Below are positions 30,908 to 46,346 of a stretch of DNA of 64,000 nt, in pieces. The stretch is taken from IMG/VR virus record IMGVR_UViG_3300025030_000012. One strand, 5' to 3'. The notes beneath the pieces are model-generated. The model was not told the origin of the DNA, searched no databases, and saw nothing but the letters and a program-made list of their open reading frames with translations. How positions within the stretch are numbered: position 1 is the stretch's first letter; every line of letters begins with the position of its first letter. The translations under genes were made by a program, and so were the position numbers. Source of the stretch: a virus.

Positions 30908-31001
30908 ACTATGGATCATGCTTCGCAACATGCCAAGAACTATTTTGGATGTCTTTTTCTCGACAGTGGGTGTTGACAATTCGACAGGGCAGGTTTAGGA
31001 T
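30908..31001. promoter_or_regulatory. Divergent sigma70 promoter pair
   Basis: Minus strand: TTGGCA-17-CATAGT (30936 to 30908). Plus strand: TTGACA-17-TAGGAT (30973-31001). Confidence 0.7.
30950..30986. promoter_or_regulatory. Two TGTYN-N6-CGACA palindromic boxes (30950-30965, 30971-30986)
   Basis: TGTCTTTTTCTCGACA and TGTTGACAATTCGACA; the second overlaps the plus-strand -35. Confidence 0.65.
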
Positions 31002-31581
31002 TCGCTCATCGCGTCTGGCCGGCGCGGATCGTAACTAGGGAGCCCCTGCAGCCGACACTGCAGGCGGCGCCCGCCCTTGTCGGAGGTGCCATGCAATACC
31101 CACAATCTCCCTTTTCGACCATTCAGGACAGAACTAAGCCTGCAAAGTCACTCCGCGGGCGCATGTCGTGAACAGCCAACGACGCAGCAAGAAGGCTACC
31201 CGGCGCCATAACCCAGCGCGGCAACCCGGCTCGCACGGCCGGCAACGCATCGAGAACACGCCATAAACGCACCGAACGTCCGGGACTGATCCGGCGCGGG
31301 GCGATAAGGCCCCGAGGAAAGCGATAAACGGGACCGTGCAGAAATGCACCCGCGCCAAAGCGGGTAAGGTGTTCCGTTGTCATCCGAGGCCGGAGCGCTG
31401 GCCGGGTGCCCAAGGATCGCCGGCCGAACCGTGAGCATCCGTAATCATCCGTGCGCAGATCAACACGGATTACCCTCGGGTTCCATCCGCGAATCGGAAG
31501 CCGCGAAGCCTTGAGAGTGTGGCTGTAGGTCTTGACTCAGGAGGGGCTTGCTCAGGTGGTAGTTCAGGGCTATGCTCACCT

Positions 31582-31597
31582 TGTCGGAAATTCGACA
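31582..31597. promoter_or_regulatory. Palindromic box upstream of terS
   Basis: TGTCGGAAATTCGACA. Confidence 0.65.
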
Positions 31598-31632
31598 CCA
31601 CGTTCGACGCGGACTGAATCCACCTTCGACCC

Positions 31633-32616
31633 ATGCCAAGCCTCGACAATTTGAAGCACGAAACAATCGCCCGCCGATTGGCCGCAGGTGACAATCAGAC
31701 CAAAGCACTGATTGCAGCAGGGTATTCGGCCAAGTCGGCATCACAAACGGCGGTCGGAGTGCTTAAGAAGAACCCTGCCATACGCCAAAGGTGCGAGGAG
31801 ATACGCGCCGCCACCAGGGCCATGGAAGAGCGTTTCAATGCCTCCCGCGAGGGCAAAAAAGAGATCACCAGGGCCTACGTTCGAGGTACGCTGCAAGAGG
31901 TCGCCGAGCGCTGCATGCAACACGATCCGGTGCTCGTGAAAGGGATCCCAACCGGCGAGTATCAGTTCGACGCGGCCGGCGCAACTCGAGCTGTGGAGCT
32001 ACTCGGGCGCGACCTGGGCATGTTCGTCGAGCGCAAAGAGATCGGTACGCCTGGCGCCTTCGCCTCGATCGAGGAGCGCCGCGAGGCCGAGCGGCTGCTT
32101 AAGCTGAAGATGGTCAAGTTGGGCATGGCGAGGCCGATGCGCCTCGTCGGGTCGTCGTCGGCTGCGACTGTTGAGAATTCGACACCTGTTGACTGTCAAT
32201 ATTCCGACACTAAGACTACTGTCGAGATTCCGACACCAGAGATCGAAGCCCCGGATCAAACCGGGGATTCCGAGCCCGAAGCGCCCTCGACGCTGGCCGA
32301 GCGCGACCTCGCGCCGCTGCCGCCGGGGATCCTGGAACCGATCAAAGGCCAGCCAGATCCGGCGAGCGTTGAACGGCTGAAGCCCGCACCAGTCGTGGCA
32401 ACCCAAGCTGTCCAAGCAGTGCAGAAGGTCCCAGGCTGGGGCCGAAAGCCATACGAGCCGCCCGTACCGCGGCCTCCGCTCGGTCCGGATCCGGGCCCAG
32501 GCCCCGAGCGCGGCGCCTGGCGTGCCGAGATGCGCCGGCGAGCGAACCTCGATGTGCGCGACGGCACGCCGAACACCTGCGATCGGCACGGTCATCCGCT
32601 CAAGGATAAGCCGTGA
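31633..32616 (+). CDS. terS: Terminase small subunit with long Pro-rich C-terminal extension
   Basis: NQTKALIAAGYSAKSASQTA...NPAIRQR...EVAERCMQ...GATRAVELLGRDLGMF. Confidence 0.85.
   Translation: MPSLDNLKHETIARRLAAGDNQTKALIAAGYSAKSASQTAVGVLKKNPAIRQRCEEIRAATRAMEERFNASREGKKEITRAYVRGTLQEVAERCMQHDPVLVKGIPTGEYQFDAAGATRAVELLGRDLGMFVERKEIGTPGAFASIEERREAERLLKLKMVKLGMARPMRLVGSSSAATVENSTPVDCQYSDTKTTVEIPTPEIEAPDQTGDSEPEAPSTLAERDLAPLPPGILEPIKGQPDPASVERLKPAPVVATQAVQAVQKVPGWGRKPYEPPVPRPPLGPDPGPGPERGAWRAEMRRRANLDVRDGTPNTCDRHGHPLKDKP
32169..32235. promoter_or_regulatory. Three palindromic boxes inside terS (32169, 32194, 32220)
   Basis: TGTTGAGAATTCGACA, TGTCAATATTCCGACA and TGTCGAGATTCCGACA at a 25-26 bp pitch. 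Confidence 0.65.
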
Positions 32617-32697
32617 GAGCCTGCCGCGGCTGCCACATCTCGATCAAGTTCGGAAGCGGAACCGAGAGTGGATGGCATCCAAACGAACCAAGGAGGC

Positions 32698-33042
32698 ATG
32701 ATGATCTATGCGATTCAGGCCGGCGACGGCGGGCCGATTAAGTTTGGTGTGGCCGAGAACCCGGCGGGCAGACTTCGTGAACTCCAGACTGGAAACCCGG
32801 AGCGGTTGCGGTTGCTGACCTCGGCACCAGTTGCTGGCGACAAGGAATGCTTGATCCACCACCACCTACGCGATGAGCGAATGGCTGGAGAATGGTTCAG
32901 GCCAACGACCAAGGCATGGAATGTTGTGTGGGCACTCGAACGTCAGGCGTTCTACACGCAGGACCACGAGCTTGCAAACCACATCTATGACGCAGAACCA
33001 GAGTCGATGGATTGGTTCGCAAAGCGGTTCGACCTGCGTTGA
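32698..33042 (+). CDS. T5orf172/GIY-YIG-like nuclease domain protein
   Basis: IYAIQ...IKFG...RLRELQTGNP...E...H...GEWF. Confidence 0.8.
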   Translation: MMIYAIQAGDGGPIKFGVAENPAGRLRELQTGNPERLRLLTSAPVAGDKECLIHHHLRDERMAGEWFRPTTKAWNVVWALERQAFYTQDHELANHIYDAEPESMDWFAKRFDLR

Positions 33043-33218
33043 CCTCTGGCCGATCGCCCCTTCAGCAGAGGCCGAAGAGGCGAGACCCCTCCCCGGGGTA
33101 CCCCCTCACCTACCCCCAGGCCGGCCCCGGGAGGCGGAAAAGAGGGCGGCAGAGGAGGCTCCAGAATTCATTCCCCCTCACCCGACTTTCCCTCTTTTCC
33201 CAATTTATTTTTTTCTCC

Positions 33219-33234
33219 TGTCGAGATTTCAACA
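33219..33234. promoter_or_regulatory. Palindromic box upstream of the Fis-HTH gene
   Basis: TGTCGAGATTTCAACA. Confidence 0.6.
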
Positions 33235-33383
33235 CTTGTCTTAATCCGTGACAGGTACTACATTGTGGTATGTTTTGAGACTATCGTGCAGTTCTTAAAA
33301 GTGAAAAAACGGTGAAGTTTTGGTGAGGAAATCGTGAAGTTATCGTGAATCGCAGATGACGCTGACAACAATCGCCGTGAATC

Positions 33384-33632
33384 ATGGACATCGTGAGCAG
33401 TGGCAGGGTGCACGCGCAGTTACTGACCGAGGGCTTCTCCTTGCCTGATGAACTGCTCGAGTTGGAGTGCGCCTACATCGAGGCGGCGCTCTATCTTTCC
33501 GGTGGTGTGGTCTCGCGTGCTGCGCGGTCCCTCGGAGTTGGGCGCCCGGCGCTGTACGCGAAGATGAAGCGTTTGGAGAAATGGAAGACGAAGAGGGGTG
33601 GAAAAAAATTTCTATTTTTTCGGGAGAATTGA
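33384..33632 (+). CDS. Stand-alone Fis-type (HTH_8) DNA-binding protein
   Basis: LELECAYIEAALYLSGGVVSRAARSLGVGRPALYAKMKRL is the C-terminal HTH pattern of sigma54 activators; no AAA+ domain. Confidence 0.85.
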   Translation: MDIVSSGRVHAQLLTEGFSLPDELLELECAYIEAALYLSGGVVSRAARSLGVGRPALYAKMKRLEKWKTKRGGKKFLFFREN

Positions 33633-34505
33633 GTGGCTCTTGCGATTGACCTGTTCTGCGGCCTTGGCGGCTGGACCGAGGGTCTGCTTGCCGAGGGTTG
33701 GGACGTGATCGGCTTCGACATTGAGCGCCACAACTACGGGACTGGCGGATACCCGGCGCAGCTTGTACTTCAGGATGTGCTTACCCTGCACGGAAGGCAG
33801 TTTAAGGATGCGGCGCTGATCGTCGCAAGTCCGCCCTGCCAGGAGTTTAGCTACATGGCTATGCCGTGGTCAAAAGCGAAGGCGCAGCGCACCGCGATAT
33901 TGGCCGATCCTGCCGAGCGCAAGCGTCTTACCGCCCTGTTCGACGCCTGCTTTCGGATTCAGCGCGAGGCAATCGAAGCTGCGGGCCACTTCATCCCGCT
34001 GGTAGTAGAGAATGTGCGCGGCGCAAATAAATGGGTGGGTCGGTCACGTTGGAACTACGGATCGTTTCATCTTTGGGGCGACGTGCCGGCGCTGATGCCG
34101 ATGACAAAATCAATCAAGAACAACGGCGGATCATGGTTTGCCATTGCCAACAACACGACAAGCGGGCATAGTAAGAATCCAGTCCTCGCGCTTGCAGGCC
34201 AGAAGGTTCCCGGCTTCCGCTTCGGTAGCGGGAAGTCGTTTCAGACGGCGAGCGTTGAAGGCACAAAAACGATAGGCCACGCGAACATCCGCGACGGCCA
34301 TTCGCACACGCGGCACCTGACGAATCAGGCGAAAAGCGATGGTGTGAAACAAGGTGGCGATTGGTTCAATGCAGAGCAACCATCTCTTTCGCGTATGACG
34401 AGCAGCAAGAGCAACGCCCGCAAAGCCGCCTCTGCCGCAATTGCCAAAATTCCGTTCGCGCTTGCCCGCCATATCGCCAGAGCGTGGAAGCCGGAGGCGG
34501 CATGA
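33633..34505 (+). CDS. Atypical C5-cytosine DNA methyltransferase
   Basis: IDLFCGLGG (motif I), SPPCQEFS (motif IV), VENV (motif VI); divergent C-terminal half. Confidence 0.75.
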   Translation: MALAIDLFCGLGGWTEGLLAEGWDVIGFDIERHNYGTGGYPAQLVLQDVLTLHGRQFKDAALIVASPPCQEFSYMAMPWSKAKAQRTAILADPAERKRLTALFDACFRIQREAIEAAGHFIPLVVENVRGANKWVGRSRWNYGSFHLWGDVPALMPMTKSIKNNGGSWFAIANNTTSGHSKNPVLALAGQKVPGFRFGSGKSFQTASVEGTKTIGHANIRDGHSHTRHLTNQAKSDGVKQGGDWFNAEQPSLSRMTSSKSNARKAASAAIAKIPFALARHIARAWKPEAA

Positions 34506-34768
34506 GCGCCTTCGAAACGCTTGAGCGCACCGGGTGCGATGGGTCGAAGGTACAGGCCCTTGCACGGCGCGTTGCGCAGATTGACCGCAGATGTACGACC
34601 TTTGAGATCACCCGCGCCGAGCGCGACGACCTCCTCCGCGACGCCATGGACATGACCCAGCTCGAGCGCGATGCCTGCACGCTGGAAGAACTGCGGGCCT
34701 TGGACGAAGCCGCAGCCTTGATTGCCAAAGTCCTGAAGTTGGCGTAACGTGACATTTTTGGAGGCACC

Positions 34769-35137
34769 ATGGCTAACGAACTGACCCTATCTGGCCTGCG
34801 GATTCAGTTTGCGAAGGCAAACGTTCCGAGCGTGGATTTTTCCCCACCCTCGCTCTCGGTGACGGTGACCGGGACCGCGAACATGGACAACACGCAGATC
34901 GTCGGCTTTGCGGCCGAGGAAGCGATTCTGCTTGGGGACTGCACGACCGGGGGCTACTGGTATGTCCAGAACATGGACGCCACGAACTTCGTGAGTCTGA
35001 GAGCCGCCACCGGGGCCGCCGACATGATCAAACTCCTGGCCGGTGAGTGGGCGGTATTCAGGTGCCCGGCCACGGCACCCTATGCGATTGCCGACACCGC
35101 GGCGGTGAAGGTCCGTTTCGTGCGATTCGCGCTGTGA
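34769..35137 (+). CDS. Beta-rich putative virion structural protein
   Basis: SD GGAGG; composition similar to the small virion proteins at 50-52 kb. Confidence 0.45.
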   Translation: MANELTLSGLRIQFAKANVPSVDFSPPSLSVTVTGTANMDNTQIVGFAAEEAILLGDCTTGGYWYVQNMDATNFVSLRAATGAADMIKLLAGEWAVFRCPATAPYAIADTAAVKVRFVRFAL

Positions 35138-35289
35138 TGGACAGCGAAAAACTCAAAGCCAAATACCAGGTGGTCGAGACTTTCACCGACCGCGTGCTCG
35201 ACCGGCTGGCGCTCGGGCCGTTTTCCGCTGCTGTCGCGGCCGCCGTCTTGCTCGGCGCAATCGCGTTTGGGATCTGGGTTTCGCGGTGA
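35137..35289 (+). CDS. Small membrane protein
   Basis: C-terminal TM FSAAVAAAVLLGAIAFGIWV. Confidence 0.5.
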   Translation: MDSEKLKAKYQVVETFTDRVLDRLALGPFSAAVAAAVLLGAIAFGIWVSR

Positions 35290-35299
35290 AGTTTTCGGC

Positions 35300-35328
35300 T
35301 TGACAAGCGCCAGCCATTAGGATGAAAT
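35300..35328 (+). promoter_or_regulatory. Promoter for initiator-like tRNA and terL
   Basis: TTGACA-17-TGAAAT, with the tRNA 5' end 6 nt downstream. Confidence 0.55.
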
Positions 35329-35333
35329 GCTTG

Positions 35334-35408
35334 CGCGGGATGGTTGCTGGTAGCCCAGAGGGTCCCATAAGCCCTCGACCGCGAGTTCGATTCTCGCTCC
35401 CGCAACCA
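35334..35408 (+). tRNA. tRNA-fMet-like (CAT), atypical
   Basis: CGCGGGA/TCCCGCA-A-CCA with the C1.A72 mismatch, GGG/CCC in the anticodon stem, T-loop TTCGATT. Confidence 0.75.
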
Positions 35409-35440
35409 AGAATAAAACAGCCGCTCGTCGGCTATACCGC

Positions 35441-35481
35441 GCGGGGCCGGCGAGGGTTGCCAGAACCCTCGCCGGCCCCGC
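35441..35481. other. 18-bp perfect hairpin
   Basis: GCGGGGCCGGCGAGGGTT-GCCAG-AACCCTCGCCGGCCCCGC. Confidence 0.8.
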
Positions 35482-35499
35482 AAACACCATGACAGGGAT

Positions 35500-35525
35500 G
35501 GGGCTCGTTAAGCCCCTTCACTTTT
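35500..35525 (+). terminator. Terminator-like hairpin directly before the terL start
   Basis: GGGGCT-CGTTA-AGCCCC followed by TTCACTTTT. Confidence 0.45.
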
Positions 35526-35526
35526 A

Positions 35527-38151
35527 ATGGATGAAACCAACCTCGAGGAAATGTCGGTCGAGGAATTCCGTGAACTCCAAGCCGAAGCCGACCGCATAGA
35601 ATTCTCCCAGGCGAAAGAAAACTTCGCCGTCTACTGCGGTCTCCACATCCCGGCAGAGGTCGAAAAAGACGACATGCCGAGGCTGCATGAATTGAGCCTG
35701 CCGGCGCGGTACATTCCGGCGACGCATCACCAGTTGATTTGCAAGTTGTTGCAGGCGCTGGAAGAGGGCGAGCTGCATGGGAGGAAGTTCAGGAACCTGA
35801 TTATTCAGGCGCCGCCTGGTAGTGCGAAAGCGCTTGCGCTCGATACGCCGATTCCAACGCCATCGGGCTGGCGCAGAATGGGCGACATGCAGATCGGAGA
35901 TTGCGTATTCGATGAGCAAGGAAAGGTGTGCCGCGTGACATGGGTCAGCCCAATCTTCAAGGACAGGCCGGTCTACAAGGTGCTCACTGACTGCGGAGAC
36001 GAAATCATCGCCGACCATGACCACGAGTGGCGTGCGCGACTTGATAGAAGGCACGGCGCATTCCGAGATCACGAGACACACATCATCGCTCGACGGCGTA
36101 ACAAACGGGCCATGGTAGAGCACGCGAAGGCTCTTGACCTACCAGACGCAAATCTTCCAATCGACCCCTACCTGCTTGGGATGTGGCTCGGAAACGGTAA
36201 CAGCGCAGGACTTCGCATTACTTGCCATCAAGATGATGTTAGCTGGGTGCGCGACGAGCTTGGTCGTCTTGGATATAAGACATCCGATTCATCGTCGCCT
36301 TTGAATTTTGGAGTGCTCGGCGTTCGCCATCTCTTCGTGCAACTCGGTCTAGTCAATGATCCTGCACACAAGACCTATGGGAAAAAATACATCCCCAAGA
36401 TTTACATGCGCGGATCAATAAGGCAACGGCTCGCACTGGTTCAAGGGCTCATTGATTCGGATGGAACGGTTAGCAACAAGCAAGGATCTGCGACGTTCTG
36501 CAACACCAACGAATGGCTGGCATTGCAGTTCAGAGAACTGGTGCGCTCGCTCGGCGTCAAGGCTGGATGGTCGGTGTCAAAGGCAATGCTCTATGGCGTC
36601 CAACATGGTATGGCCTATCACGTTTCCTTCTACATGAAGGAGGCCGCGCGCTCTCCACGAAAGAGCGCAAACGCGAGAGATCAGTACCGAACTCCAAACA
36701 CGTATATCTCAGCGGAGCCATGCGGGACTGCGGATACGATCTGCATCGAAGTTGATTCACCATCTCATCTCTATCTATGTGGCGAGTCAATGACTCCTAC
36801 GCACAACAGCACCTACTGTTCGCATTTATTTCCATCGTGGTATCTCGGCAAACATCCAGCATTTAATGTGATTCAGGGATCACAGACGGATGATCTTGCC
36901 CATCGCTTTGGACGTAGAGCGAGAAACACGTTTGCAAGTGAACTGCATCACAAGGTCTTCAATGTTGGCGTCGCGTCAGATTCGCGCGCAGCAGGTTCTT
37001 GGGAAACAGAGAAAGGTGGCGAATACTTTGCCACTGGCGTTCAACCTTTTGCCGGAAGACGCGCGGAACTCCTTTGTATCGACGACGCCATCCGGGGACA
37101 AGAGGATGCGGATTCGCAAAATGTTCTGGACAAGATTTGGAACTGGTATGTTCATGATGCCTGGCCTCGCCTGAAACCGCACGGAAAACAGGTCATCGTT
37201 TCAACAAGATGGTCAGAGGGGGACATCATCGGCCGCATCATCCCCAAAACCTTCGCCGGCAAAACCGGATGGGTCAAGGGCAAAGACGGCGAGATGTGGT
37301 ACGTCCTCTGTTTGAAAGCCGTGATCGAGACCGAAGAGGACGCCGCCAACGATCCGCTCGGGCGCAAGGTGGACGAGATCCTGTGGCCGGAATGGTTCAC
37401 CCGCGAGATGATGGACACCGCCAAGGTCAAGGCCGGGATCAGAGGCTGGGCCGGGCAGTACCAGCAGATGCCAAGACCCGAAGGCGGAGCCATTCTGCTC
37501 TCGAACTGGTGGCGCGAATGGAAACAGGAACTGCCGAAAGTCGAGTACGTCATCCAGGTCTACGATACGGCTTTCGAGGAAGGCGAGGAAAACTCCTACT
37601 CGGCTCGAACAACCTGGGGAATCTTTTCTCACACAGATACCCTGCAAAAGAAGGATGGTCTCAACGTCGAGCGGACACGATACTGCTGCATCCTGCTTGA
37701 GGCGTGGCGCTCCAAGTGTGAATTCACCGAACTGCGGGATGAGGCGAAACGGGGATACAAGCGATACCGGCCGGACCGGGTGCTGATCGAGAAGCGGGCC
37801 AGCGGCCATTCACTTTTGCAAGAACTCCGCCGCGCCGGACTCCCGGTACGCCCGGCAAATCCGAAGTGGATGGGGCGCTCCAAGCGTGCCCGTGCCTACG
37901 CCGCTCAGACCGTGCTCGAGGACGGCTGCGTCTTCTACCCCTGCAAGTTCAGGGAAGGGACGTGGACGCCTTACTCGTGGGCGCTGCCGGTGGTCGACGA
38001 GGTCGCCGGCTACCCGGATGGAGAATTCACCGATTACGCCGACACTGCCATCCACGCCTGGCTCTGGCTGCGCCAGCACTGGCACCTGAAGCTGACCGAC
38101 GAGGACGAGGACAAGCCGGTGGAGAAACGACGCATCCAGATGTTTGGGTAG
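35527..38151 (+). CDS. terL: Terminase large subunit, intein-containing
   Basis: Walker A APPGSAK|ST, Walker B LLCIDD, STRW motif, nuclease domain DTAF, VLIEKRASG, DYAD. Confidence 0.95.
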   Translation: MDETNLEEMSVEEFRELQAEADRIEFSQAKENFAVYCGLHIPAEVEKDDMPRLHELSLPARYIPATHHQLICKLLQALEEGELHGRKFRNLIIQAPPGSAKALALDTPIPTPSGWRRMGDMQIGDCVFDEQGKVCRVTWVSPIFKDRPVYKVLTDCGDEIIADHDHEWRARLDRRHGAFRDHETHIIARRRNKRAMVEHAKALDLPDANLPIDPYLLGMWLGNGNSAGLRITCHQDDVSWVRDELGRLGYKTSDSSSPLNFGVLGVRHLFVQLGLVNDPAHKTYGKKYIPKIYMRGSIRQRLALVQGLIDSDGTVSNKQGSATFCNTNEWLALQFRELVRSLGVKAGWSVSKAMLYGVQHGMAYHVSFYMKEAARSPRKSANARDQYRTPNTYISAEPCGTADTICIEVDSPSHLYLCGESMTPTHNSTYCSHLFPSWYLGKHPAFNVIQGSQTDDLAHRFGRRARNTFASELHHKVFNVGVASDSRAAGSWETEKGGEYFATGVQPFAGRRAELLCIDDAIRGQEDADSQNVLDKIWNWYVHDAWPRLKPHGKQVIVSTRWSEGDIIGRIIPKTFAGKTGWVKGKDGEMWYVLCLKAVIETEEDAANDPLGRKVDEILWPEWFTREMMDTAKVKAGIRGWAGQYQQMPRPEGGAILLSNWWREWKQELPKVEYVIQVYDTAFEEGEENSYSARTTWGIFSHTDTLQKKDGLNVERTRYCCILLEAWRSKCEFTELRDEAKRGYKRYRPDRVLIEKRASGHSLLQELRRAGLPVRPANPKWMGRSKRARAYAAQTVLEDGCVFYPCKFREGTWTPYSWALPVVDEVAGYPDGEFTDYADTAIHAWLWLRQHWHLKLTDEDEDKPVEKRRIQMFG
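35830..36807 (+). mobile_element. Class 3 (Ala1, WCT) intein (326 aa) with LAGLIDADG endonuclease
   Basis: Starts ALALDTPIPTPSGW; block B DHDHEW, block F DTICIEV, block G TPTHN then Ser+1; LLGMWLGNG and LVQGLIDSDG motifs. Confidence 0.9.
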
Positions 38152-39278: not shown

Positions 39279-39282
39279 ATTC

Positions 39283-39358: not shown

Positions 39359-39365
39359 GAAATTC

Positions 39366-39436: not shown

Positions 39437-39462
39437 GTCGGCGGCATTGTACTTCAAAAGTG

Positions 39463-39539: not shown

Positions 39540-39545
39540 GTTATT

Positions 39546-39630: not shown

Positions 39631-39631
39631 T

Positions 39632-40159
39632 TGGTGGGCCTGCTGGGACTCGAACCCAGAACATCTTCACGCTTGGCTATGACAGTTTGGGCAAAGGAAT
39701 CGAAGATTCTTCTTCCTATCGTCCAACCTATTCCTATTACGATGATCCACATCCAATACCAGAGGCTTACCTTTCCATTCTGGCCCCAACCCACACTGCT
39801 CACATAGATGGGGGACCCCACTCTCAATCAAAGCCCTTCGCAAATACGCCGCACCTTGTCTGTCACCAACATCACGTTTAACTAAAATACTTGCCGCTGT
39901 TCTCCTTGGCTGTTTCTTTCCTTTGTTCCATGCTCTACCTGTGAAATGACTGGTGTCTACCCCAGCCCTCTGCATCCTTCTTCGTATGTGCCCATGGCTA
40001 CCCCCAGGGAGCAATATACCCAAAAATCTCAACACCCCTGTGATGGAGGTTGAATTCTCTGCGGCTTCATGAAGTTGATCATCTGAATAGCGTGGCATTC
40101 GCTATTCTAACACGAAATTACAGAGAGGCAAGCGCGACTGCCAATTGCGCCACAGGCCC
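39632..40159 (-). pseudogene. Leu-like tRNA split by an HNH cassette (5' part about 40126-40159, 3' part about 39632-39681); anticodon unresolved
   Basis: GGGCCTG/CAGGCCC-A-CCA, Leu-type D arm GCGCAATTGGCAGTCGCG, then CTTGC-CT; the 3' part has CCAAG, a variable arm and T arm CTGGG-TTCGAGT-CCCAG. Confidence 0.7.
39667..40098 (-). CDS. HNH endonuclease inserted in the Leu-like tRNA
   Basis: CEQCG...LDVDHRNRNRLDDRKKNLRFLCPNCHSQ; the last codons overlap the tRNA 3' half. Confidence 0.9.
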   Translation of the reverse strand: MPRYSDDQLHEAAENSTSITGVLRFLGILLPGGSHGHIRRRMQRAGVDTSHFTGRAWNKGKKQPRRTAASILVKRDVGDRQGAAYLRRALIESGVPHLCEQCGLGPEWKGKPLVLDVDHRNRNRLDDRKKNLRFLCPNCHSQA

Positions 40160-40200
40160 AGCGTTTAGCTGAGTCGGTATCGCAATCGTAAAGGCGCTTG

Positions 40201-40275
40201 GGGGTGACTGGTGAGAGTCGAACTCACGATAAGGGAGTCACAATCCCTTGGCTTGGCCGCTTGCTGACAGCCACC
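40201..40275 (-). tRNA. tRNA-His(GTG)
   Basis: G-1 GTGGCTG/CAGTCAC-C73, AGGGA-TT-GTG-AC-TCCCT. Confidence 0.88.
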
Positions 40276-40324
40276 CCGAAACGTCCTTCGTCCGGTGCGA
40301 AGTGGGCGGCAATGTCGGGATTTG

Positions 40325-40397
40325 CGGGGGCGGCTGGACTCGAACCAGCGACCAACGATGTCAAAGACCGTTGCTCTACCAACTGAGCTACGCCCCT
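40325..40397 (-). tRNA. tRNA-Gln(TTG), no encoded CCA
   Basis: A1.C72 mismatch, G2-C71, G3-C70, G73; ACGGT-CT-TTG-AC-ATCGT. Confidence 0.8.
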
Positions 40398-40418
40398 TGA
40401 TCGTCTGTCGTTTTAGGT

Positions 40419-40493
40419 TGGTCAGAGCGGAAAGATTCGAACTTTCGACAACCGGCTTCCAAAACCGGGACTCTACCCCTGAGCTACGCTCTG
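40419..40493 (-). tRNA. tRNA-Pro(TGG)
   Basis: CAGAGCG/CGCTCTG-A-CCA, CCGGT-TT-TGG-AA-GCCGG. Confidence 0.92.
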
Positions 40494-40535
40494 AGATAAC
40501 GGGTCGCGGTCGTGGAGAATTGGAATCCATGCGCG

Positions 40536-40564
40536 AGTAAATCACAAATCAGGCCGTACCGCAA
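40536..40564 (-). promoter_or_regulatory. Putative promoter of the tRNA array
   Basis: TTGCGG-17-TTTACT upstream of tRNA-Pro. Confidence 0.45.
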
Positions 40565-40575
40565 CCTGCCCCTTG

Positions 40576-40617
40576 CGTCGAGAATTCGACAGGAGTACGC
40601 TTGTCGGGTTTTCGACA
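40576..40617. promoter_or_regulatory. Two palindromic boxes (40576-40591, 40602-40617)
   Basis: CGTCGAGAATTCGACA and TGTCGGGTTTTCGACA; 26-bp pitch; the second abuts the SD of the next gene. Confidence 0.65.
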
Positions 40618-40627
40618 GGAGGTCAAA

Positions 40628-41040
40628 TGACAACACCTCAATACAAGCGTGACCAAGCGCTGTCCAGGATGAAACAAATAGTGGGCCCCGCGCTAAGACC
40701 GAGCACCACATCAGGTATCACGTCACGTAGTGACCTTGTTCCTCGCACCAAAATCAATATGTCGCCGCAATCACTCCCCGCACCGACAGTGAGCGCACAG
40801 CGAGTGGAGAAATCCATGCCTCCTGGCCGTCCTGGCGTATTCCGAGTGGAGAAATCCACACAGCCAAATCCGGGCCCTGGTCCGAGTAATCCCGCTTTGC
40901 AAAGGCAAATGGTTGACAGGGCGAGACAGATAACGGCTAAAGCTCCTATGCCTCCTAGCCGTCCTGTACCCGTGGCACCGGACGTGCAAATCAGACCACC
41001 GAGCCCCGGCCGAGGTGTGGTGAGCAAGCTCAAGCGGTAA
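40628..41040 (+). CDS. Pro/Arg-rich low-complexity hypothetical protein
   Basis: SD AGGAGG before ATG 40628. Confidence 0.5.
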
Positions 41041-41063
41041 CGATCACCGTTTCAGGAGAGGGC

Positions 41064-43619
41064 ATGAACGGAAACGGACCTCACCCGTTCGATCCGAGCC
41101 ACGAACGCACACCCGGGGCAATCCCGGCGGGAGCTATTGTTGACCTCACGATGCCGATGCCCCAAGGCGACGAGGCGCGCATCACGCAGTCGGGCGAGGA
41201 TGTCATCGTCGATTTCGCCCCGGACAAGCAGGACCTTCCGTTCAACGCCGAGGACGCCAAGGAACATGGCGCCAACCTCGCGCGCTTCATCACCGACACC
41301 GAAAAAGCTCGCATCGCCCAGGACGTGATCCGATGGGTTGATGCCGACGTTGAGGCCCGCCAACCGTGGGTAGACAAACTTGCCGATGGCTTGGTCCTCC
41401 TGGGGGTGGTCAAGGACGCCTCGGACCTGGGTCCGCTTGGAGCTGCCGAGAAAGTCACCCACCCGCTGCTCGCCGAAGCGGCGATTCAGTACCAGTCGCG
41501 CGCCATCACCGAACTGTTCCCCTCCGGCGGGCCGGCAAAATGGGAAGTGCTCGGGGATGTGACCGAGGAGAAGGAAGACTCAGCCGACCGGCTGGCGAAC
41601 TTCCTCAATTTCACCCTCACGATTCAAGACAAGTCCTACTACAACGAATTCGACCGCATGCTATTCGTGCAGTCCTACGAGGGCAGTCAGTTCAAGAAGA
41701 TTTCCTACGATCCGCTAGTCGGAACTCCGGTTTCTCGCTGGGTGCGGGGACAGCACTTTATTGTGCCCTACGGCGCGGCAAGCCTTCAGTCGGCCCCGCG
41801 CTACACCCACGAGCAGAAGATCGAGCACAACGACGTTCTGAAGCTACAAGACATCGGCTTCTACACCGACGATGTTCTGGGTGAACCAACAGGGACCGCA
41901 CCGAGCGATTACAACACCATCAAGGAAAAGAAAGACGAAGCCGAGGGCATGACGCCTTCCATCCTGCTCGGAGAAATGCAGCCGCACATCTTCCTGGAGA
42001 TGCACGCCAACTGGGATCTGGCAGGATTCGAGCACGTCAACGACAAGAAGAAGAAAACCGGGATAGCACTCCCCTACATCGCCCACGTCGAGCGCGACAG
42101 CCAGAAGCTCCTTGGGCTGTACCGAAACTGGAAGGAAGATGATTCACTGCAAAGAAAACGGGTCTGGTTCGTCCACTACCCATTTATCCCGGGCGACGGC
42201 TTCTACTCCTACGGCTACGTGCACCTGGCCTCGGGAATCGCCAGAGCCTCGACCTTCGCCCTCCGTGTTCTCCTGATGGGGTCCGCTTTTGCCTCGATGG
42301 CCGGCGGGTTCAAGACGAAGAGCGCGCGCACCACGGGAAATATCACCCTTCAGGCCGGCGTGTTTCAGGACACCGACATGGAGTTCGAAGAACTGTCGAA
42401 GATGTTCTACTCGCCGAACTTCAAGGAACCCAGTCAGGCCCTGTTTCAGACCTTGGGGCTGCTCGTTGAGGGCGGCCAAAGGCTTTTCTCTACGCAGGAC
42501 GCTATGGTTGGGGACGCCTCGAACACCGGACCCGTAGGAACCACGGTCGCTTTGATCGAGGAAGGCAAGAAGGTCTTTTCCGCAGTGCACAAGCGGGGGC
42601 ACGCGGCTCTCGGGGAAGAACTCCAGATCCTCCGCGACGTGTGGAAGGAATACATCCCGGAAGGCGGATACCCCTACGACATCCCGGGCGAGTCCAGGGA
42701 AGTCATGGCCGAGGACTTCGCCGACTACGCCAACATCGTTCCGGTCTCGGACCCGAACATCTTCAGCTCGACGCAGCGAATCGCCCTGGCGCAGTCAGTA
42801 GGGCAGATGGCGATCGCAAACCCCGCCATGGACCGCCGGGAAGCCGACAGCATGATGCTGAGAGCCCTTCGCATACCGCAGGAGCAAATCAACCAGCTCC
42901 TGCCGGACCCCAAGGACATCAAGCGGGCGGACCCGGTCACGGAAAACGCCCTCATCATGGCCGGCCGTCCGGTAAAGGTTTTCGTCGATCAGGATCACGG
43001 CTCCCATTACCAAGTCCACCAGACTCAGCTCCAGGCCATGCAGGCCCAAGCCCCTCAGAACCCGCTCATCGCAGAACGCATTCCAGTCCTGATGGCCCAT
43101 GTTGCGGAGCACCAAGCCTACGGGGAAAGGCTTGGAATGATGAAAATGCTCGGAATCGAGCTGCCGCCGATGGACTTGGACGCCGACGAGCAGGAAATGC
43201 CGGGCATTCCGCCCGAACTGGACGCCATGATTTCCCAAAGAGCCGCGATTGCAGTCTCCAAGATGCCGCGGCCACCCCAACCACAGGATCTGGCGGCCCA
43301 GGCCGACGACCTGAAGAAGCGCGAGGACGCGCTGGCCGCCGAGCAGGAGAAGCTCGCCAAGGCCCGCGAAGGTATAGCCGGGGAGCAGAACAACCTCATC
43401 ACGCTGCGCGCTCAGGCTGAGAAAGAGTCGATGCGGGCGAAGTACGAGCAGGATCTGGCCGACAAGGATGCCGAGATCCGGGCCCTGAAGCTCCAAGGCG
43501 ACATCGAAAAGCGAGTGAACACCGCCGTCGACCGGGTTGAAAAAGCTCTCACCGACATGAAGAACGCCGCGCTGAAGGCGTCCGAAGCGTCATCCTCTCA
43601 AGGAGCGGCTTCCAAATGA
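41064..43619 (+). CDS. Portal protein (P22-like) with C-terminal coiled coil
   Basis: 851 aa after terL; HPLLAEAAIQYQSRA, F.K...D, GFYSYG, PVSDPN motifs; long helical barrel-like tail. Confidence 0.85.
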   Translation: MNGNGPHPFDPSHERTPGAIPAGAIVDLTMPMPQGDEARITQSGEDVIVDFAPDKQDLPFNAEDAKEHGANLARFITDTEKARIAQDVIRWVDADVEARQPWVDKLADGLVLLGVVKDASDLGPLGAAEKVTHPLLAEAAIQYQSRAITELFPSGGPAKWEVLGDVTEEKEDSADRLANFLNFTLTIQDKSYYNEFDRMLFVQSYEGSQFKKISYDPLVGTPVSRWVRGQHFIVPYGAASLQSAPRYTHEQKIEHNDVLKLQDIGFYTDDVLGEPTGTAPSDYNTIKEKKDEAEGMTPSILLGEMQPHIFLEMHANWDLAGFEHVNDKKKKTGIALPYIAHVERDSQKLLGLYRNWKEDDSLQRKRVWFVHYPFIPGDGFYSYGYVHLASGIARASTFALRVLLMGSAFASMAGGFKTKSARTTGNITLQAGVFQDTDMEFEELSKMFYSPNFKEPSQALFQTLGLLVEGGQRLFSTQDAMVGDASNTGPVGTTVALIEEGKKVFSAVHKRGHAALGEELQILRDVWKEYIPEGGYPYDIPGESREVMAEDFADYANIVPVSDPNIFSSTQRIALAQSVGQMAIANPAMDRREADSMMLRALRIPQEQINQLLPDPKDIKRADPVTENALIMAGRPVKVFVDQDHGSHYQVHQTQLQAMQAQAPQNPLIAERIPVLMAHVAEHQAYGERLGMMKMLGIELPPMDLDADEQEMPGIPPELDAMISQRAAIAVSKMPRPPQPQDLAAQADDLKKREDALAAEQEKLAKAREGIAGEQNNLITLRAQAEKESMRAKYEQDLADKDAEIRALKLQGDIEKRVNTAVDRVEKALTDMKNAALKASEASSSQGAASK

Positions 43620-43982
43620 ATACCGTCACGACCTACGCTTTGCCGAAGCTCCTTGCGATCGCGGTGGCTGCCGCGCTCAACCGCGAATTGCCGCGCATCG
43701 TAGTCCTGGTCAAGCACCTGAGCGAGCGAGGCAGGGTCATGGAAGAACAGCTTGGCTCGGTTTCGATTCCGTACTTCAACGCCATGATGGCAGAGGCTGC
43801 GCATGCTCGCCGATAAACAGGTCAAGGACATCGGCTTCAAGATTGCCGACTTGGAGAAGATGATTCTCTCCGGCACCTTGGAGCCCGAGAAGTACAAGGC
43901 CAAGTGTGCCGAGCGCAGGGCGTATCTGGATGCCATCGAGATCATCAAGACCATTTCCGGCGACGAGGAGGACGACAAGTGA
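43616..43982 (+). CDS. Two small head-module proteins (43616-43816, 43803-43982)
   Basis: Overlapping start/stop junctions between the portal and the GroES-like gene. Confidence 0.5.
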
Positions 43983-44530
43983 GCGTGAGCGCACGAGAAA
44001 AGAATCAGGCAATCGAGGTACTGGACGATGTGCTGAAGACCATGGACGACCCGAACTTGGGCATGAAAGTGCAGGACGATCCCTACTATGGCGTCGATTA
44101 CGAGGAAGACCTGTACGACGCCTTCGATCAGACGGTGCCGCCCGGCGCCCCGCATCCCTCGATCTGGCGCATCCTGGTCGCGCCGTGCATTCCGAGGACG
44201 ATGAGCAAAGGCGGGATCGAACTGCCTCACGCGGTCCGCGAGGCCGAGGAGCACCTGAACTATTTGGGGCGCGTCGTGCACATCGGTCCGCTCGCCGGCC
44301 GCTCGCCGAAGTTTCACATCATCACCAACCGCTTGCTCTACTGGCTCACCGCAGGCGCTTTCGGCTGGGTATCGGCCTGGGACTACAAGGTCGGCGACCT
44401 GATTCTATTCGGACGCTACAACGGACAGAAGATTTTCTTCAAGGGGGCAAGACTCGTCATGATGAATGACGACGAAGTCATCGGCCGCGCCGATTCGCCC
44501 AAGGGATTCAAGATTTACGCCGCAGGATAA
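43979..44530 (+). CDS. groES: GroES/Cpn10-like co-chaperonin
   Basis: RILV...MSKGGIELP...GRVVHIGP...KVGDLILFGRYNG...VMMNDDEVIG. Confidence 0.8.
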   Translation: MSVSAREKNQAIEVLDDVLKTMDDPNLGMKVQDDPYYGVDYEEDLYDAFDQTVPPGAPHPSIWRILVAPCIPRTMSKGGIELPHAVREAEEHLNYLGRVVHIGPLAGRSPKFHIITNRLLYWLTAGAFGWVSAWDYKVGDLILFGRYNGQKIFFKGARLVMMNDDEVIGRADSPKGFKIYAAG

Positions 44531-44547
44531 CCCGCAAGGAGATCACC

Positions 44548-44703
44548 ATGATGAACCGAAGCCAGATGAAGAAGGAAATGCAGGGCGGGAAGAAAACGAA
44601 AGGCGGTGCCGGATCGGGCGGCCCGCTGTGCAAACCCGGCCACGCGGCCAAGAATGTGAACGTGCACAAGAAGATGGCAATGGGCGCTAAAGGCAGCAAG
44701 TAG
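44548..44703 (+). CDS. Small basic Lys/Gly/Met-rich protein (51 aa)
   Basis: SD AAGGAG; MMNRSQMKKEMQGGKKTKGG... Confidence 0.5.
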   Translation: MMNRSQMKKEMQGGKKTKGGAGSGGPLCKPGHAAKNVNVHKKMAMGAKGSK

Positions 44704-44743
44704 GTCCGAAACAAACACGCCCTCGGGCGGAGAAAGGAGAAGC

Positions 44744-45775
44744 ATGGCAACGAAAACAGACGTGATTGACGAATTGATGCCGGACCCGGAAGAAGCTGGC
44801 GGCACGCAGGACGATCTTGAAATCGAGATCGCCGAGGGGGACGAAGGCGGCGGAGTCCGAGTCCCGGACGAGGAAGGTGCCGAGGCCGGCGCCGAAGACG
44901 AGGGGGCCCGGCTCGCCGAGGAAGAAGGCGAGGAACTGAGCGCCGAGGACAAGAAGTATTCGAAGAACGTCCAGGACCGCATCAAGCGCGAGCAGCGCCT
45001 GAGACGCAGGCAGGTCGAAACCGAACGCCAGGCCCGGGAAGCCTCTGACGCGCGCGCGGTCGAGGCCAATGCGCGCGCCGCCGAGGCCGAAAGGCAGACC
45101 GTCGAGGCCCGGCTTCTCACCACCAGCGTGATGGTGCGCAGTTTGAAGTCGGAAATCGGTTCCTTGACCGAGAAAATCACCGTGGCCAAGGAAGGCGGCA
45201 AGACCGAGGACGAGGTCAAGCTTCAACAGCAATTGAACGACGCCCAAGCCAACCTTCGGGAAGCGGAAACCAATCACGGCAGGCTCGAGGAGATCAAGAA
45301 AAACCCTCCAAAATCAGTCCCGGCGGCCGAAAACCCGTATTCGAGGGACTGGCTTGGCGGAAATAACTGGTTCAACGACCCGGAATTCAGCGGTGACGCA
45401 GCCAAAGCGCGTGAAATCGACGCCAAAATGATGAAGGAGGGGAAATTCAGCCCTCGGACAGCCGAATACTTCAAGGAATTGGACAAGCGGCTCCACGACG
45501 AGCTGCCGAGGCTGCGGACCAAGGTCAAAACGGCTGGATTGATCGCGACATTCGCCGGCGCAAAGCCCCAGCCTGACACGCGGCGCGGTGACGCCAGACC
45601 ATCCGCGGCCCTGCCGGCGCAACCACGCCAATCCAGTGCTGAGGCGCCAAAATCCAAGACCAAAGTCGTGCTCACCGCCGCGGATCTGGAGAACATGCGC
45701 AATTTCAAGATGGATCCGACCAATCCGAAACACCTGCAGCGGTACGCGCGGGAAAAAATTGCCCAAGGAGACTGA
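44744..45775 (+). CDS. Capsid scaffolding protein
   Basis: Acidic N-terminus, long coiled coil, position before the capsid genes. Confidence 0.7.
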   Translation: MATKTDVIDELMPDPEEAGGTQDDLEIEIAEGDEGGGVRVPDEEGAEAGAEDEGARLAEEEGEELSAEDKKYSKNVQDRIKREQRLRRRQVETERQAREASDARAVEANARAAEAERQTVEARLLTTSVMVRSLKSEIGSLTEKITVAKEGGKTEDEVKLQQQLNDAQANLREAETNHGRLEEIKKNPPKSVPAAENPYSRDWLGGNNWFNDPEFSGDAAKAREIDAKMMKEGKFSPRTAEYFKELDKRLHDELPRLRTKVKTAGLIATFAGAKPQPDTRRGDARPSAALPAQPRQSSAEAPKSKTKVVLTAADLENMRNFKMDPTNPKHLQRYAREKIAQGD

Positions 45776-45776
45776 C

Positions 45777-46289
45777 ATGGTAAAAACGACAAGTGCCGAA
45801 CGCTCGGTGCACGCTTCCAGAGAGGAAGAAATGCGCGAGGAAACCGTCCATGACGAGGAAGAGGTTGTCTGGGAGCAGAATCTTGCCTTACAGGCCCCGG
45901 CGCCGAGGAAAGGCTTCCGCCAGCGCTTCATCCGGGTCATGCTCCAAGGCAAGGACGATCATACGAACATCTCCAAGAAGCTGCGTGACGGCTGGAAGCC
46001 AAGGGAAGTCGCCACTTTGCCCAAAAACTATGACGTCCCAATCATCGAATCCGGGAGGTTCAGCGGTTTCATCGGCATCCAAGGTGGAGTCCTGATGGAA
46101 ATGCCGGAAAAACGCGCGCAAGCCAGAGAGAAGTTCTACGCCAAATTGACGCGCGGTCGGACCCAGGCTTTGGACTCCCAACTGCAGCAGGTCGGACGGG
46201 TAGCCGGGGGTCGTGGGTTCGGCCCGATCGAGGCGGACAAGAAATCCGTCCCGGTGCGTGAAGTAAGGGTTGCCCCGGACGAGGAATAA
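45777..46289 (+). CDS. Conserved head-module protein
   Basis: APAPRKGFRQRFIR...GWKP...GGVLMEMP pattern between scaffold and capsid. Confidence 0.55.
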   Translation: MVKTTSAERSVHASREEEMREETVHDEEEVVWEQNLALQAPAPRKGFRQRFIRVMLQGKDDHTNISKKLRDGWKPREVATLPKNYDVPIIESGRFSGFIGIQGGVLMEMPEKRAQAREKFYAKLTRGRTQALDSQLQQVGRVAGGRGFGPIEADKKSVPVREVRVAPDEE

Positions 46290-46293
46290 TAAG

Positions 46294-46346
46294 TTGACTT
46301 TCTGGTTTTTGTAGCCGATAGTACTAATACTGTCGAGATTCCGACA
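46294..46346 (+). promoter_or_regulatory. Capsid-operon promoter with downstream palindromic box
   Basis: TTGACT-17-GATAGT, then TGTCGAGATTCCGACA at 46331-46346, identical to the box at 32220. Confidence 0.6.

What the first reader, a model, noticed from the sequence alone, without database searches (positions are those of the whole stretch)
30950..46346. Ten-copy TGTCG-N6-CGACA palindrome set plus a stand-alone Fis-type HTH protein
Seen: 16-bp boxes at 30950, 30971, 31582, 32169, 32194, 32220, 33219, 40576, 40602 and 46331, each within one mismatch of TGTCG-N6-CGACA, with mostly A/T-rich spacers. The boxes at 32220 and 46331 are identical. They sit at the divergent accessory/terS promoters (one overlaps a -35), upstream of terS, between the tRNA and portal operons, just after the capsid promoter, and about 150 bp before gene 33384-33632. 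That gene encodes only the Fis-type HTH found at the C-terminus of sigma54 activators. Known: TGT-N10-ACA is the NifA-type upstream activator consensus bound by that HTH class. Inference: this is a phage late-gene switch built from a bEBP DNA-binding domain without its ATPase, or a way of tying the phage to a host bEBP. Alternatively the triple box inside terS is a TerS-bound pac element.
Basis: partly seen in the sequence, partly recalled or inferred. Interest (0 to 1): 0.8.

Follow-up and report, generated by a model that had tools for sequence, protein, structure and literature searches.

The report
Phage late-promoter operator set, Fis-like protein
An uncultured groundwater/soil phage carries ten copies of one 16-bp palindrome on the core of its packaging and head-gene promoters and inside its small-terminase gene; they look like operators for a dimeric repressor, perhaps the phage's own 82-residue Fis-like protein, but the binder is not established.

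Summary
Exactly ten boxes fit TGTCG-N6-CGACA (fuller consensus TGTCGRRA/TYYCGACA). Four are exact, against 0.08 expected. They score 17-24 bits against 11.4 for the next-best site, and all lie in 30950-46346.

Related metagenomic phage contigs (portal identity down to about 52%) keep boxes at the same functional places:
- about +1 of the terS promoter;
- a cluster of 3-5 in the terS linker;
- the promoter after terS;
- the spacer and +1 of the portal promoter;
- the capsid-operon promoter.

More distant relatives have neither boxes nor the HTH gene.

Half-site changes are one-sided, so these are protein sites, not hairpins. The boxes overlap sigma70-type core promoters, and sigma54 promoters are not enriched. 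This is operator/repressor geometry, not a NifA-type enhancer.

The 82-aa protein is a genuine HTH_8 protein with a Fis-like four-helix model and a predicted homodimer. Its closest solved relative by sequence is the FleQ DNA-binding domain, whose box (GTC-N8-GAC, A/T centre) has the same geometry. PpsR/CrtJ is the closest functional analogue.

The assignment of this protein to the boxes is weakened: one box-bearing lineage shows no HTH_8 gene across 19 kb, and one variant has the gene frameshifted.

A TerS/pac reading is disfavoured. I rate this a new variant of a known kind, of moderate interest.

The parts
30950..30965 (.). Box 1 (one mismatch). Centre is about -50 of the + strand promoter 30973-31001 and about -56 of the - strand promoter 30936-30908.
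   Evidence: 16.9 bits
30971..30986 (.). Box 2. It contains the TTGACA -35 of the TTGACA-17-TAGGAT promoter that drives the non-coding region upstream of terS.
   Evidence: The same box and promoter occur in L009, L010 and L011.
31548..31576 (+). Putative terS promoter (TTGCTC-17-TATGCT).
   Evidence: Read. The same layout (-35 TTGCYY, 16-17 bp, TAYGCT, 5-6 nt, box) occurs in L009, L011 and L014.
31582..31597 (.). Box 3 (exact). It starts 5 nt after the terS -10, with its centre at about +6.
31633..32616 (+). terS (327 aa): N-terminal Terminase_2 domain followed by a long Pro-rich linker and tail.
   Evidence: PF03592; phrog_51
32169..32235 (.). Cluster of three boxes (32169, 32194, 32220) inside the terS linker, centres 25 and 26 bp apart, in mixed reading frames.
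   Evidence: Clusters of 3-5 boxes sit at the same place in L009, L010, L011, L014 and L054. L051/L052 lack the box-bearing segment.
33219..33234 (.). Box 7. It ends 1 nt before the -35 of the promoter of the HTH_8 gene, with its centre at about -44.
33236..33264 (+). Putative promoter of the HTH_8 gene (TTGTCT-17-TACATT), conserved in L009, L010 and L011.
33384..33632 (+). Gene for the 82-aa stand-alone Fis/NtrC-type HTH_8 protein, the candidate box reader.
40573..40601 (+). Putative portal-operon promoter (TTGCGT-17-TACGCT).
   Evidence: Read. The TTGCGT fused to the first box is conserved in L011, L014 and L016.
40576..40591 (.). Box 8. It fills the -35/-10 spacer of the portal promoter, and its first base is replaced by the C of TTGCGT.
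40602..40617 (.). Box 9 (exact). It starts right after the -10 of the portal promoter and ends at the ribosome-binding site of ORF 40627-41040.
46294..46322 (+). Promoter TTGACT-17-GATAGT upstream of gene 46472-47035 and of the major capsid gene 47045-47956.
   Evidence: The capsid assignment rests on homology to the Phage_capsid_4 genes of L014, L016 and L017.
46331..46346 (.). Box 10 (exact, identical to the box at 32220). It starts 8 nt after the -10, with its centre at about +9.
   Evidence: Boxes lie at the analogous place in L014 (15541, 15558) and L016 (7718).

Best explanation
The ten boxes are operators for one sequence-specific dimeric helix-turn-helix protein. Together they form a small regulon. 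It covers the sigma70-type promoters of the terS, portal and capsid operons, the promoter of a conserved non-coding RNA, the divergent accessory-operon promoter, and the promoter of the HTH_8 gene itself.

Most boxes sit on the -35, in the spacer or at +1. Occupancy should therefore block host RNA polymerase, which means repression. The box at about -44 of the HTH_8 promoter allows autoregulation.

The most likely reader is the phage's own 82-aa Fis-like HTH_8 protein. It would bind as a homodimer, each recognition helix reading one TGTCG half-site across a bendable A/T-rich centre, as FleQ does at GTC-N8-GAC boxes and PpsR/CrtJ at paired TGT-N12-ACA palindromes.

The cluster inside terS would be a high-affinity auxiliary site (roadblock, reservoir or loop anchor).

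Shown: the motif, its excess over chance, its conserved positions, one-sided half-site variation, the domain identity of the protein, its Fis-like model and a predicted dimer.

Inferred: that any protein binds, which protein it is, and the sign of regulation.
For: - Non-random set.
- Conserved placement in four other box-bearing lineages despite diverged flanks (L011, L014, L016, L054). Boxes are absent from relatives with 43-47% portal identity, which also lack the HTH gene within 10 kb either side of the portal.
- Variant half-sites change on one side only, with no compensatory pairs. This fits a protein site, not a hairpin.
- The boxes overlap predicted sigma70 core elements, and sigma54 sites are not enriched.
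- Protein: HTH_8 at E 8.9e-12. The closest solved sequence is the FleQ DNA-binding domain. The AF2 model has pLDDT 82 and four helices; its best Foldseek matches are Fis, ZraR and the NtrC4 DNA-binding domain, but with weak E-values of 0.03-0.1.
- Homodimer prediction: score 0.64 against a best control of 0.00. That mark was reached by 20 of 30 proteins solved as pairs of one chain and by 1 of 23 solved as single chains. Runs agree in at least 81% of contacts and partner pLDDT is at least 77. The interface uses residues 6-38 and 49-52, leaving the recognition helix free. Fis and NtrC dimers are solved, so the pass may reflect likeness.
- Published FleQ boxes, GTCaNTAAAtTGAC, share the GTC-N8-GAC geometry (PMC6120874). 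FleQ represses a sigma70-type promoter from a box centred at +6 (PMC3424551).
- PpsR/CrtJ uses paired TGT-N12-ACA palindromes 8-9 bp apart (PMC4452267). The HTH homologue of L011 matches the C-terminus of the PpsR-CrtJ model.
- A box adjoins the HTH gene's own promoter in the window, L009, L010 and L011.
Against: - L014 (portal 58% identical) has 11 boxes at the same functional places. It has no HTH_8 homologue by tblastn or Pfam in 19 kb running from terS into the genes beyond the capsid.
- The annotated sibling contig of L016 lists no HTH_8 between terS and terL.
- L010 carries a 16-bp deletion that frameshifts the HTH gene, yet keeps all seven of its boxes.
- In the window a 113-bp insertion separates the promoter from the ATG, and I see no clear ribosome-binding site.
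- Two other small HTH proteins are encoded in the window, at 13574-13762 and 28655-28825.
- No binding data exist. All promoters are predictions. A repressor of late genes encoded among the late genes gives no obvious timing logic.
Confidence: 0.42

Rival explanations
1. The boxes are operators, but the reader is another phage protein encoded outside the late region. Candidates are the 62-aa HTH_23 protein at 13574-13762 or the 56-aa weak HTH at 28655-28825. The HTH_8 protein would then be an accessory or unrelated regulator found in only one sub-lineage.
For: Boxes without an HTH_8 gene in L014. Broken HTH gene with intact boxes in L010. The other HTH proteins exist. The 28655 gene appears to lie in the minus-strand operon that starts at the box-bearing divergent promoter, by ORF layout only.
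Against: No box lies near 13574. Both Pfam hits are generic or weak. No known geometry links these folds to the motif.
Confidence: 0.2
2. A host transcription factor with a Fis/FleQ/PpsR-like or other dimeric HTH reads the boxes, coupling phage late expression to host physiology. The phage HTH_8 protein, where present, mimics or competes with it.
For: The box consensus is unchanged across lineages in which phage proteins diverge strongly. Boxes occur without a phage HTH_8 gene in L014. The FleQ box geometry is the same, and FleQ acts at sigma70 promoters from +6 and -48. Some boxes carry FleQ-like GTCA/TGAC half-sites.
Against: The host is unknown, and no host genome could be searched. A genome-wide scan for tandem boxes gave only scattered, unrelated hits. 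Placing host-repressor sites on one's own late promoters needs a special rationale.
Confidence: 0.2
3. The cluster inside terS is the pac site, read by TerS. The promoter copies would be secondary TerS sites or autoregulatory sites.
For: From general knowledge, pac sites of headful phages often lie inside terS (P22, Sf6, SPP1). The terS cluster is the most widely conserved location, and it is the only one seen in L054.
Against: - The TerS N-terminal DNA-binding region diverges strongly between the window, L009, L054 and L014, while the boxes stay the same.
- L051/L052 have a window-like TerS N-terminus but lack the box segment and have no boxes in 7.8 kb.
- Perfect 2-fold palindromes and variable spacing (17-41 bp) do not suit a TerS ring.
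- Most copies sit on promoters of other operons.
Confidence: 0.1
4. The boxes act as nucleic-acid hairpins (5' mRNA stem-loops or single-stranded DNA hairpins) or as part of a special promoter, not as duplex sites for a protein dimer.
For: Three boxes begin at about +1 of predicted transcripts. A 5-bp stem with a 6-nt loop is possible.
Against: Every variant breaks pairing on one side, and no compensatory change is seen in about 40 boxes across lineages. Some boxes lie upstream of or within promoters, so would not be transcribed from them. The spacer is itself symmetric (RRA/TYY). I found no phage RNA polymerase among the window's ORFs of about 120 aa or more that were scanned with Pfam.
Confidence: 0.05

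Closest known systems
PpsR/CrtJ repressor of photosynthesis genes (purple bacteria)
   Same: Its C-terminal HTH resembles this one (L011's homologue matches the model's C-terminus). It binds TGT...ACA palindromes that come in pairs 8-9 bp apart at photosynthesis-gene promoters (PMC4452267). It acts without sigma54 (general knowledge).
   Different: PpsR is a protein of about 460 aa with PAS domains and a redox-sensing Cys. Its palindrome is TGT-N12-ACA, not N10. It is a host protein, not a phage protein. Here the pairs are 5-10 bp apart.
FleQ at the pelA promoter (Pseudomonas)
   Same: It is the closest solved sequence relative of the 82-aa protein. Its box GTCaNTAAAtTGAC has the same GTC-N8-GAC geometry with an A/T centre. 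It represses a sigma70-type promoter from a box centred at +6 and has a second box at -48.
   Different: FleQ has FleQ and AAA+ domains, binds c-di-GMP and needs FleN. The phage protein is the DNA-binding part only. The fourth base of the half-site is G here and A in FleQ boxes.
Fis (E. coli) and the NtrC-type DNA-binding domains
   Same: Fis is the best structural match of the model, a four-helix protein. A dimer is predicted through the long helix. From general knowledge, Fis sites have a conserved G/C at about 7 bp either side of an A/T-rich centre.
   Different: There is no N-terminal beta-hairpin arm. Fis sites are 15 bp and degenerate, whereas these are 16-bp sharply defined palindromes. 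Sequence identity is only about 22-26%.
NifA upstream activator sequence TGT-N10-ACA
   Same: The outer triplets and the spacing are the same.
   Different: NifA sites lie 100 bp or more upstream of sigma54 promoters and need an AAA+ domain. Here there is no enrichment of sigma54 promoters, the boxes lie on sigma70 core elements, and NifA is not among the nearest relatives found for the HTH, though it was not compared directly.
Multi-copy phage repressor sites (mycobacteriophage L5 gp71 stoperators; lambda-type operators)
   Same: One short site is repeated many times in a phage genome, at promoters and inside transcription units, and is read by one phage repressor (general knowledge).
   Different: Stoperators are asymmetric 13-mers spread genome-wide in temperate phages. 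Here the sites are palindromes confined to the packaging and head module of a phage with no lysogeny genes seen.
pac sites within terS (P22, Sf6, SPP1), and lambda ori iterons in the linker-coding part of gene O
   Same: Repeated protein-binding sites are embedded in the linker-coding part of a DNA-handling gene (general knowledge).
   Different: The same sites also sit on several promoters. They show no correlation with the type of TerS DNA-binding domain. Genome ends could not be mapped.

Membership tests
Pfam HTH_8 / Fis-family HTH | Profile match above the curated cut-off | tested here: met
   PF02954: 45 bits against a cut-off of 22, E 8.9e-12, residues 26-64
Pfam HTH_8 / Fis-family HTH | Fis/NtrC-like helical fold with the HTH as the last two helices | tested here: met
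   AF2 model with pLDDT 82 and helices 4-13, 20-38, 43-50 and 54-71. Best Foldseek matches are Fis, ZraR, the NtrC4 DNA-binding domain and NtrX (probability about 1, TM 0.55-0.75), but E-values are only 0.03-0.1.
Pfam HTH_8 / Fis-family HTH | Symmetric homodimer | tested here: inconclusive
   Prediction only: score 0.64 against a best control of 0.00 (mark reached by 20 of 30 proteins solved as pairs of one chain and 1 of 23 solved as single chains). Like complexes are solved, so the pass may come from memory.
Bacterial enhancer-binding protein / sigma54 enhancer system | AAA+ sigma54-interaction domain | tested here: not met
   The protein is 82 aa and matches the HTH only.
Bacterial enhancer-binding protein / sigma54 enhancer system | A -24/-12 sigma54 promoter downstream of the sites | tested here: not met
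   66 matches against 76 expected. The only near-consensus site (40973) lies inside an ORF that L011 lacks.
Bacterial enhancer-binding protein / sigma54 enhancer system | Sites about 100 bp or more upstream of the promoter | tested here: not met
   Most boxes overlap a predicted -35, spacer or +1, and two others are centred at about -44 and -50.
PpsR/CrtJ-type repressor system | HTH_8-type domain reading paired TGT-Nx-ACA palindromes on sigma70-type promoters | tested here: inconclusive
   The geometry is similar (pairs 5-10 bp apart on core promoters), but the spacer is N10 rather than N12 and binding is untested.
PpsR/CrtJ-type repressor system | PAS domains and a redox-active Cys | tested here: not met
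   82 aa, with no other domain.
TerS-bound pac site | Located in or next to terS | tested here: met
   Clusters of 3-5 boxes lie in the terS linker in five lineages.
TerS-bound pac site | The site goes with the TerS DNA-binding domain | tested here: not met
   The domain diverges while the boxes stay constant. L051 has a window-like domain but no boxes.
TerS-bound pac site | Packaging series start there (DNA ends or a coverage step) | not testable with these tools
   All runs that hold the phage are kept only as contigs.
Phage operator regulon | A repeated site at several promoters, conserved in relatives | tested here: met
Phage operator regulon | Bound by a phage regulator, with an effect on transcription | not testable with these tools
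   Needs EMSA or footprinting and reporter assays.

The most novel reading that the evidence does not exclude
A phage lineage has taken the DNA-binding module of a bacterial enhancer-binding or Fis-like protein and uses it, or the host protein it copies, as a master operator system on its late sigma70 promoters. The same boxes, inserted as a cassette into the terS linker, would double as a packaging or roadblock signal. Late transcription and DNA packaging would then be tied to one factor, and possibly to a host state such as c-di-GMP or redox.
Probability: 0.12. Interest if true: 0.75.

Novelty: new variant of a known kind. Interest (0 to 1): 0.5.

Why it matters
Regulation of late genes in uncultured podovirus-like phages that rely on host RNA polymerase is largely unknown. 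This finding offers a compact, testable regulon: one 16-bp operator, five or six promoters, and three small candidate regulators.

It matches no PHROG family, and my one literature search on the point turned up no such phage regulator. It would be the converse of the recently described phage protein Htm, which keeps the AAA+ part and lacks the HTH.

The conserved box cluster in the terS linker is unexplained and could link transcription control to packaging.

Tried and rejected
- Close DNA relatives among deposited phages: none.
- Portal-based locus searches in IMG/VR and JGI metagenomes: none.
- No genome is held for the window, nor for the L014 assembly.
- Tandem-box scan of viral contigs: eight unrelated contigs with other HTH types or in-gene iteron arrays, and no HTH_8. 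I dropped these as independent uses of a common palindrome.
- Tandem-box scans of genomes: the first was mistyped with a 7-nt spacer. The second gave 27 scattered hits with no relation to the phage, so it gave no lead to a host.
- Rfam on the window and on 30900-31700: tRNAs only.
- PHROGs gave nothing for the HTH protein.
- Sequencing runs: 20 groundwater and soil DNA runs hold the stretch, all kept as contigs, so ends could not be mapped and I did not use read laying. No RNA holder is listed.
- Hairpin/RNA reading: rejected for lack of compensatory changes.
- Coupling to the methylase: rejected as a core feature. The abutting C5-methylase gene is absent next to the HTH gene in L009 and L011.

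Full report
**Observation**

A scan for TGTCG-N6-CGACA finds the ten listed boxes at the stated coordinates. Four copies are exact, against 0.08 expected. At one mismatch there are 13 hits against 3.3 expected. The three extra hits have G+C-rich spacers.

A symmetric weight matrix built from the ten boxes scores them at 16.9-24.0 bits. Nothing else in the 64 kb scores above 11.4. All ten boxes lie within 30950-46346. The spacer is A/T-rich and itself symmetric, so the full consensus is the 16-bp palindrome TGTCGRRA/TYYCGACA.

**Setting**

The window is part of a novel podovirus-like phage from groundwater and soil metagenomes. Its gene order is:
- terS, 31633-32616;
- a T5orf172/GIY-YIG-like gene;
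- the 82-aa HTH_8 gene, 33384-33632;
- a C5-methylase gene that abuts it;
- terL with an intein, 35527-38151;
- a tRNA array on the minus strand;
- the portal gene, 41064-43619;
- head genes, with the major capsid gene at 47045-47956.

**Where the boxes sit**

All promoters are predicted, not mapped.
- Box 30971 contains the -35 of TTGACA-17-TAGGAT, with box 30950 just upstream. The same region holds the divergent minus-strand promoter.
- Box 31582 starts 5 nt after the -10 of a TTGCTC-17-TATGCT promoter, just before terS.
- Boxes 40576 and 40602 fill the spacer and the +1 region of TTGCGT-17-TACGCT, before the portal operon.
- Box 46331 starts 8 nt after the -10 of TTGACT-17-GATAGT, before the capsid operon.
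- Box 33219 ends 1 nt before the -35 of the HTH gene's promoter.
- Three boxes lie inside the terS linker.

**Relatives**

I reached related contigs through homologues of the HTH, portal and TerS proteins.

L009 and L010 are near-identical to the window. L011/L012 have 92% portal, 81% TerS and 64% HTH identity. L014 has 58% portal and 40% TerS identity. L016 has 52% portal identity. L054/L055 have 60% TerS identity. All of these carry boxes of the same consensus. Placement is conserved while the flanks diverge:
- The terS promoter layout recurs in L009, L011 and L014.
- The portal promoter, with TTGCGT fused to the first box, recurs in L011, L014 and L016.
- Capsid-promoter boxes occur in L014 and L016.
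- Every terS that has the linker segment carries 3-5 boxes.

Four more distant relatives (43-47% portal identity) have a short terS, no intergenic promoters, no boxes, and no HTH_8 within 10 kb either side of the portal.

**Nature of the site**

Across about 40 boxes the departures from consensus are one-sided (TGTTG, CAACA, TGACG, TGTCA, TTGACA). None is compensated on the other arm. The terS boxes lie in mixed reading frames. Spacing between neighbouring boxes varies from 17 to 41 bp. This pattern fits independent binding of a two-fold symmetric protein dimer to duplex DNA. It does not fit hairpins or wrapping around a ring.

**Sign of regulation**

Sigma54 promoters are not enriched (66 found, 76 expected). 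The boxes overlap sigma70-type core elements. Steric repression is therefore the simplest reading, with possible autoregulation from about -44 at the HTH promoter. This rests on predicted promoters only.

**The candidate reader**

The 82-aa protein matches only HTH_8. Its closest solved sequence relatives are the DNA-binding domains of FleQ and ZraR. Its AF2 model (pLDDT 82) is a four-helix Fis-like protein. The best Foldseek matches are Fis, ZraR, the NtrC4 DNA-binding domain and NtrX, with probability near 1 but E-values of only 0.03-0.1.

A homodimer prediction scored 0.64 against 0.00 for the best of three controls. That mark was reached by 20 of 30 proteins solved as pairs of one chain and by 1 of 23 solved as single chains. 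Runs agree in at least 81% of contacts, and partner pLDDT is at least 77. The interface uses the N-terminal and long helices. Because Fis and NtrC dimers are solved, the pass shows likeness rather than proof.

Three published cases fit the site:
- FleQ boxes, GTCaNTAAAtTGAC, have the same GTC-N8-GAC geometry with an A/T centre (PMC6120874).
- FleQ represses the sigma54-independent pelA promoter from a box centred at +6 and also binds at -48 (PMC3424551).
- PpsR/CrtJ binds paired TGT-N12-ACA palindromes 8-9 bp apart (PMC4452267). L011's HTH homologue matches the C-terminus of the PpsR-CrtJ model.

NifA is not among the closest relatives I found, though I did not compare the protein with NifA directly.

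**What weakens the assignment**

- L014 has 11 boxes but no HTH_8 by tblastn or Pfam in 19 kb running from terS into the genes beyond the capsid. None of its small ORFs between terS and terL has a homologue in the window.
- L010 has a 16-bp deletion that frameshifts the HTH gene, yet keeps its boxes.
- The window and L010 have a 113-bp insertion between the promoter and the ATG. L009 and L011 are leaderless or nearly so.
- The window encodes two other small HTH proteins.

The binder could therefore be another phage protein or a host factor.

**TerS/pac alternative**

The TerS N-terminal DNA-binding region differs strongly between the window, L009, L054 and L014, while the boxes stay the same. 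L051/L052 have a window-like N-terminus, but they lack exactly the roughly 30-residue linker segment that carries the boxes, and they have no boxes in 7.8 kb. The cluster behaves as an insertion cassette in the linker, independent of the type of TerS domain. I could not map DNA ends, because all runs are kept only as contigs.

**Verdict**

The reading as a promoter-associated operator regulon is well supported by comparison with relatives (about 0.8).
- the Fis-like 82-aa protein, about 0.4;
- another phage protein, about 0.2;
- a host factor, about 0.2;
- TerS, about 0.1.

The sigma54/NifA framing is not supported. I rate this a new variant of a known kind of system. The terS cluster remains unexplained.

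Noticed in passing
window 31002-31580 (L009:1160-1750, L011:292-948): The roughly 550-bp ORF-free region between the strong TTGACA-17-TAGGAT promoter and the terS promoter is conserved in blocks. Its first hairpin shows several compensatory changes among three lineages (22 of 165 predicted pairs have two-sided changes). It is a candidate large structured RNA with no Rfam match.
   Followed up: partly
window 33265-33383: A 113-bp insertion, shared with L010 and absent from L009 and L011, separates the HTH gene's promoter from its ATG and carries repeated ATCGTGAA words. In L009 and L011 the ATG lies 6 nt after the -10, so the mRNA is leaderless or nearly so.
   Followed up: partly
L010:2573-2806: This near-identical natural variant has a 16-bp deletion in the HTH_8 gene that truncates it to 55 aa. 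All seven of its boxes are intact. It could be a real defective variant or an assembly error.
   Followed up: partly
window 32169-32186 and the same place in L009, L011, L014, L054: The first terS box always lies in the same reading frame and encodes an invariant VENST peptide, even in TerS proteins only 40% identical. The DNA constraint appears to fix the peptide.
   Followed up: partly
L011:2140-2220; L054:2300-2390: Downstream of terS, a small ORF that begins with a CxxC motif carries lineage-specific direct repeats (GTCGTTACG several times in L011; GGTAGTTCACG about five times in L054).
   Followed up: no
window 33630-33635: The stop codon of the HTH_8 gene abuts the GTG start of a C5 cytosine methylase gene (33633-34505). 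Every box contains two CpGs. L009 and L011 have other genes downstream of the HTH gene instead of the methylase.
   Followed up: partly
window 40973-40987: One near-consensus sigma54-type -24/-12 sequence (TGGCAC-N5-GTGC) lies 77 bp upstream of the portal ATG, inside ORF 40627-41040. L011 lacks that ORF, so it is probably chance.
   Followed up: partly
L005:6435-6850; L006:1513-1928: Unrelated low-GC viral contigs carry ten-copy arrays of TGTCG-N6-CGACA at a 20-bp period inside a 645-aa ORF. This resembles an in-gene replication origin with iterons.
   Followed up: partly
window 29166-29687 (-), 22104-22553, 11891-13246 (-), 42-4076: Accessory genes: a LapG/BTLCP-like cysteine peptidase, a Mom-like protein, a Ro60/TROVE protein, and a 1344-aa protein with an intein. 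TerL also holds an intein, and there are 14 tRNA genes.
   Followed up: no
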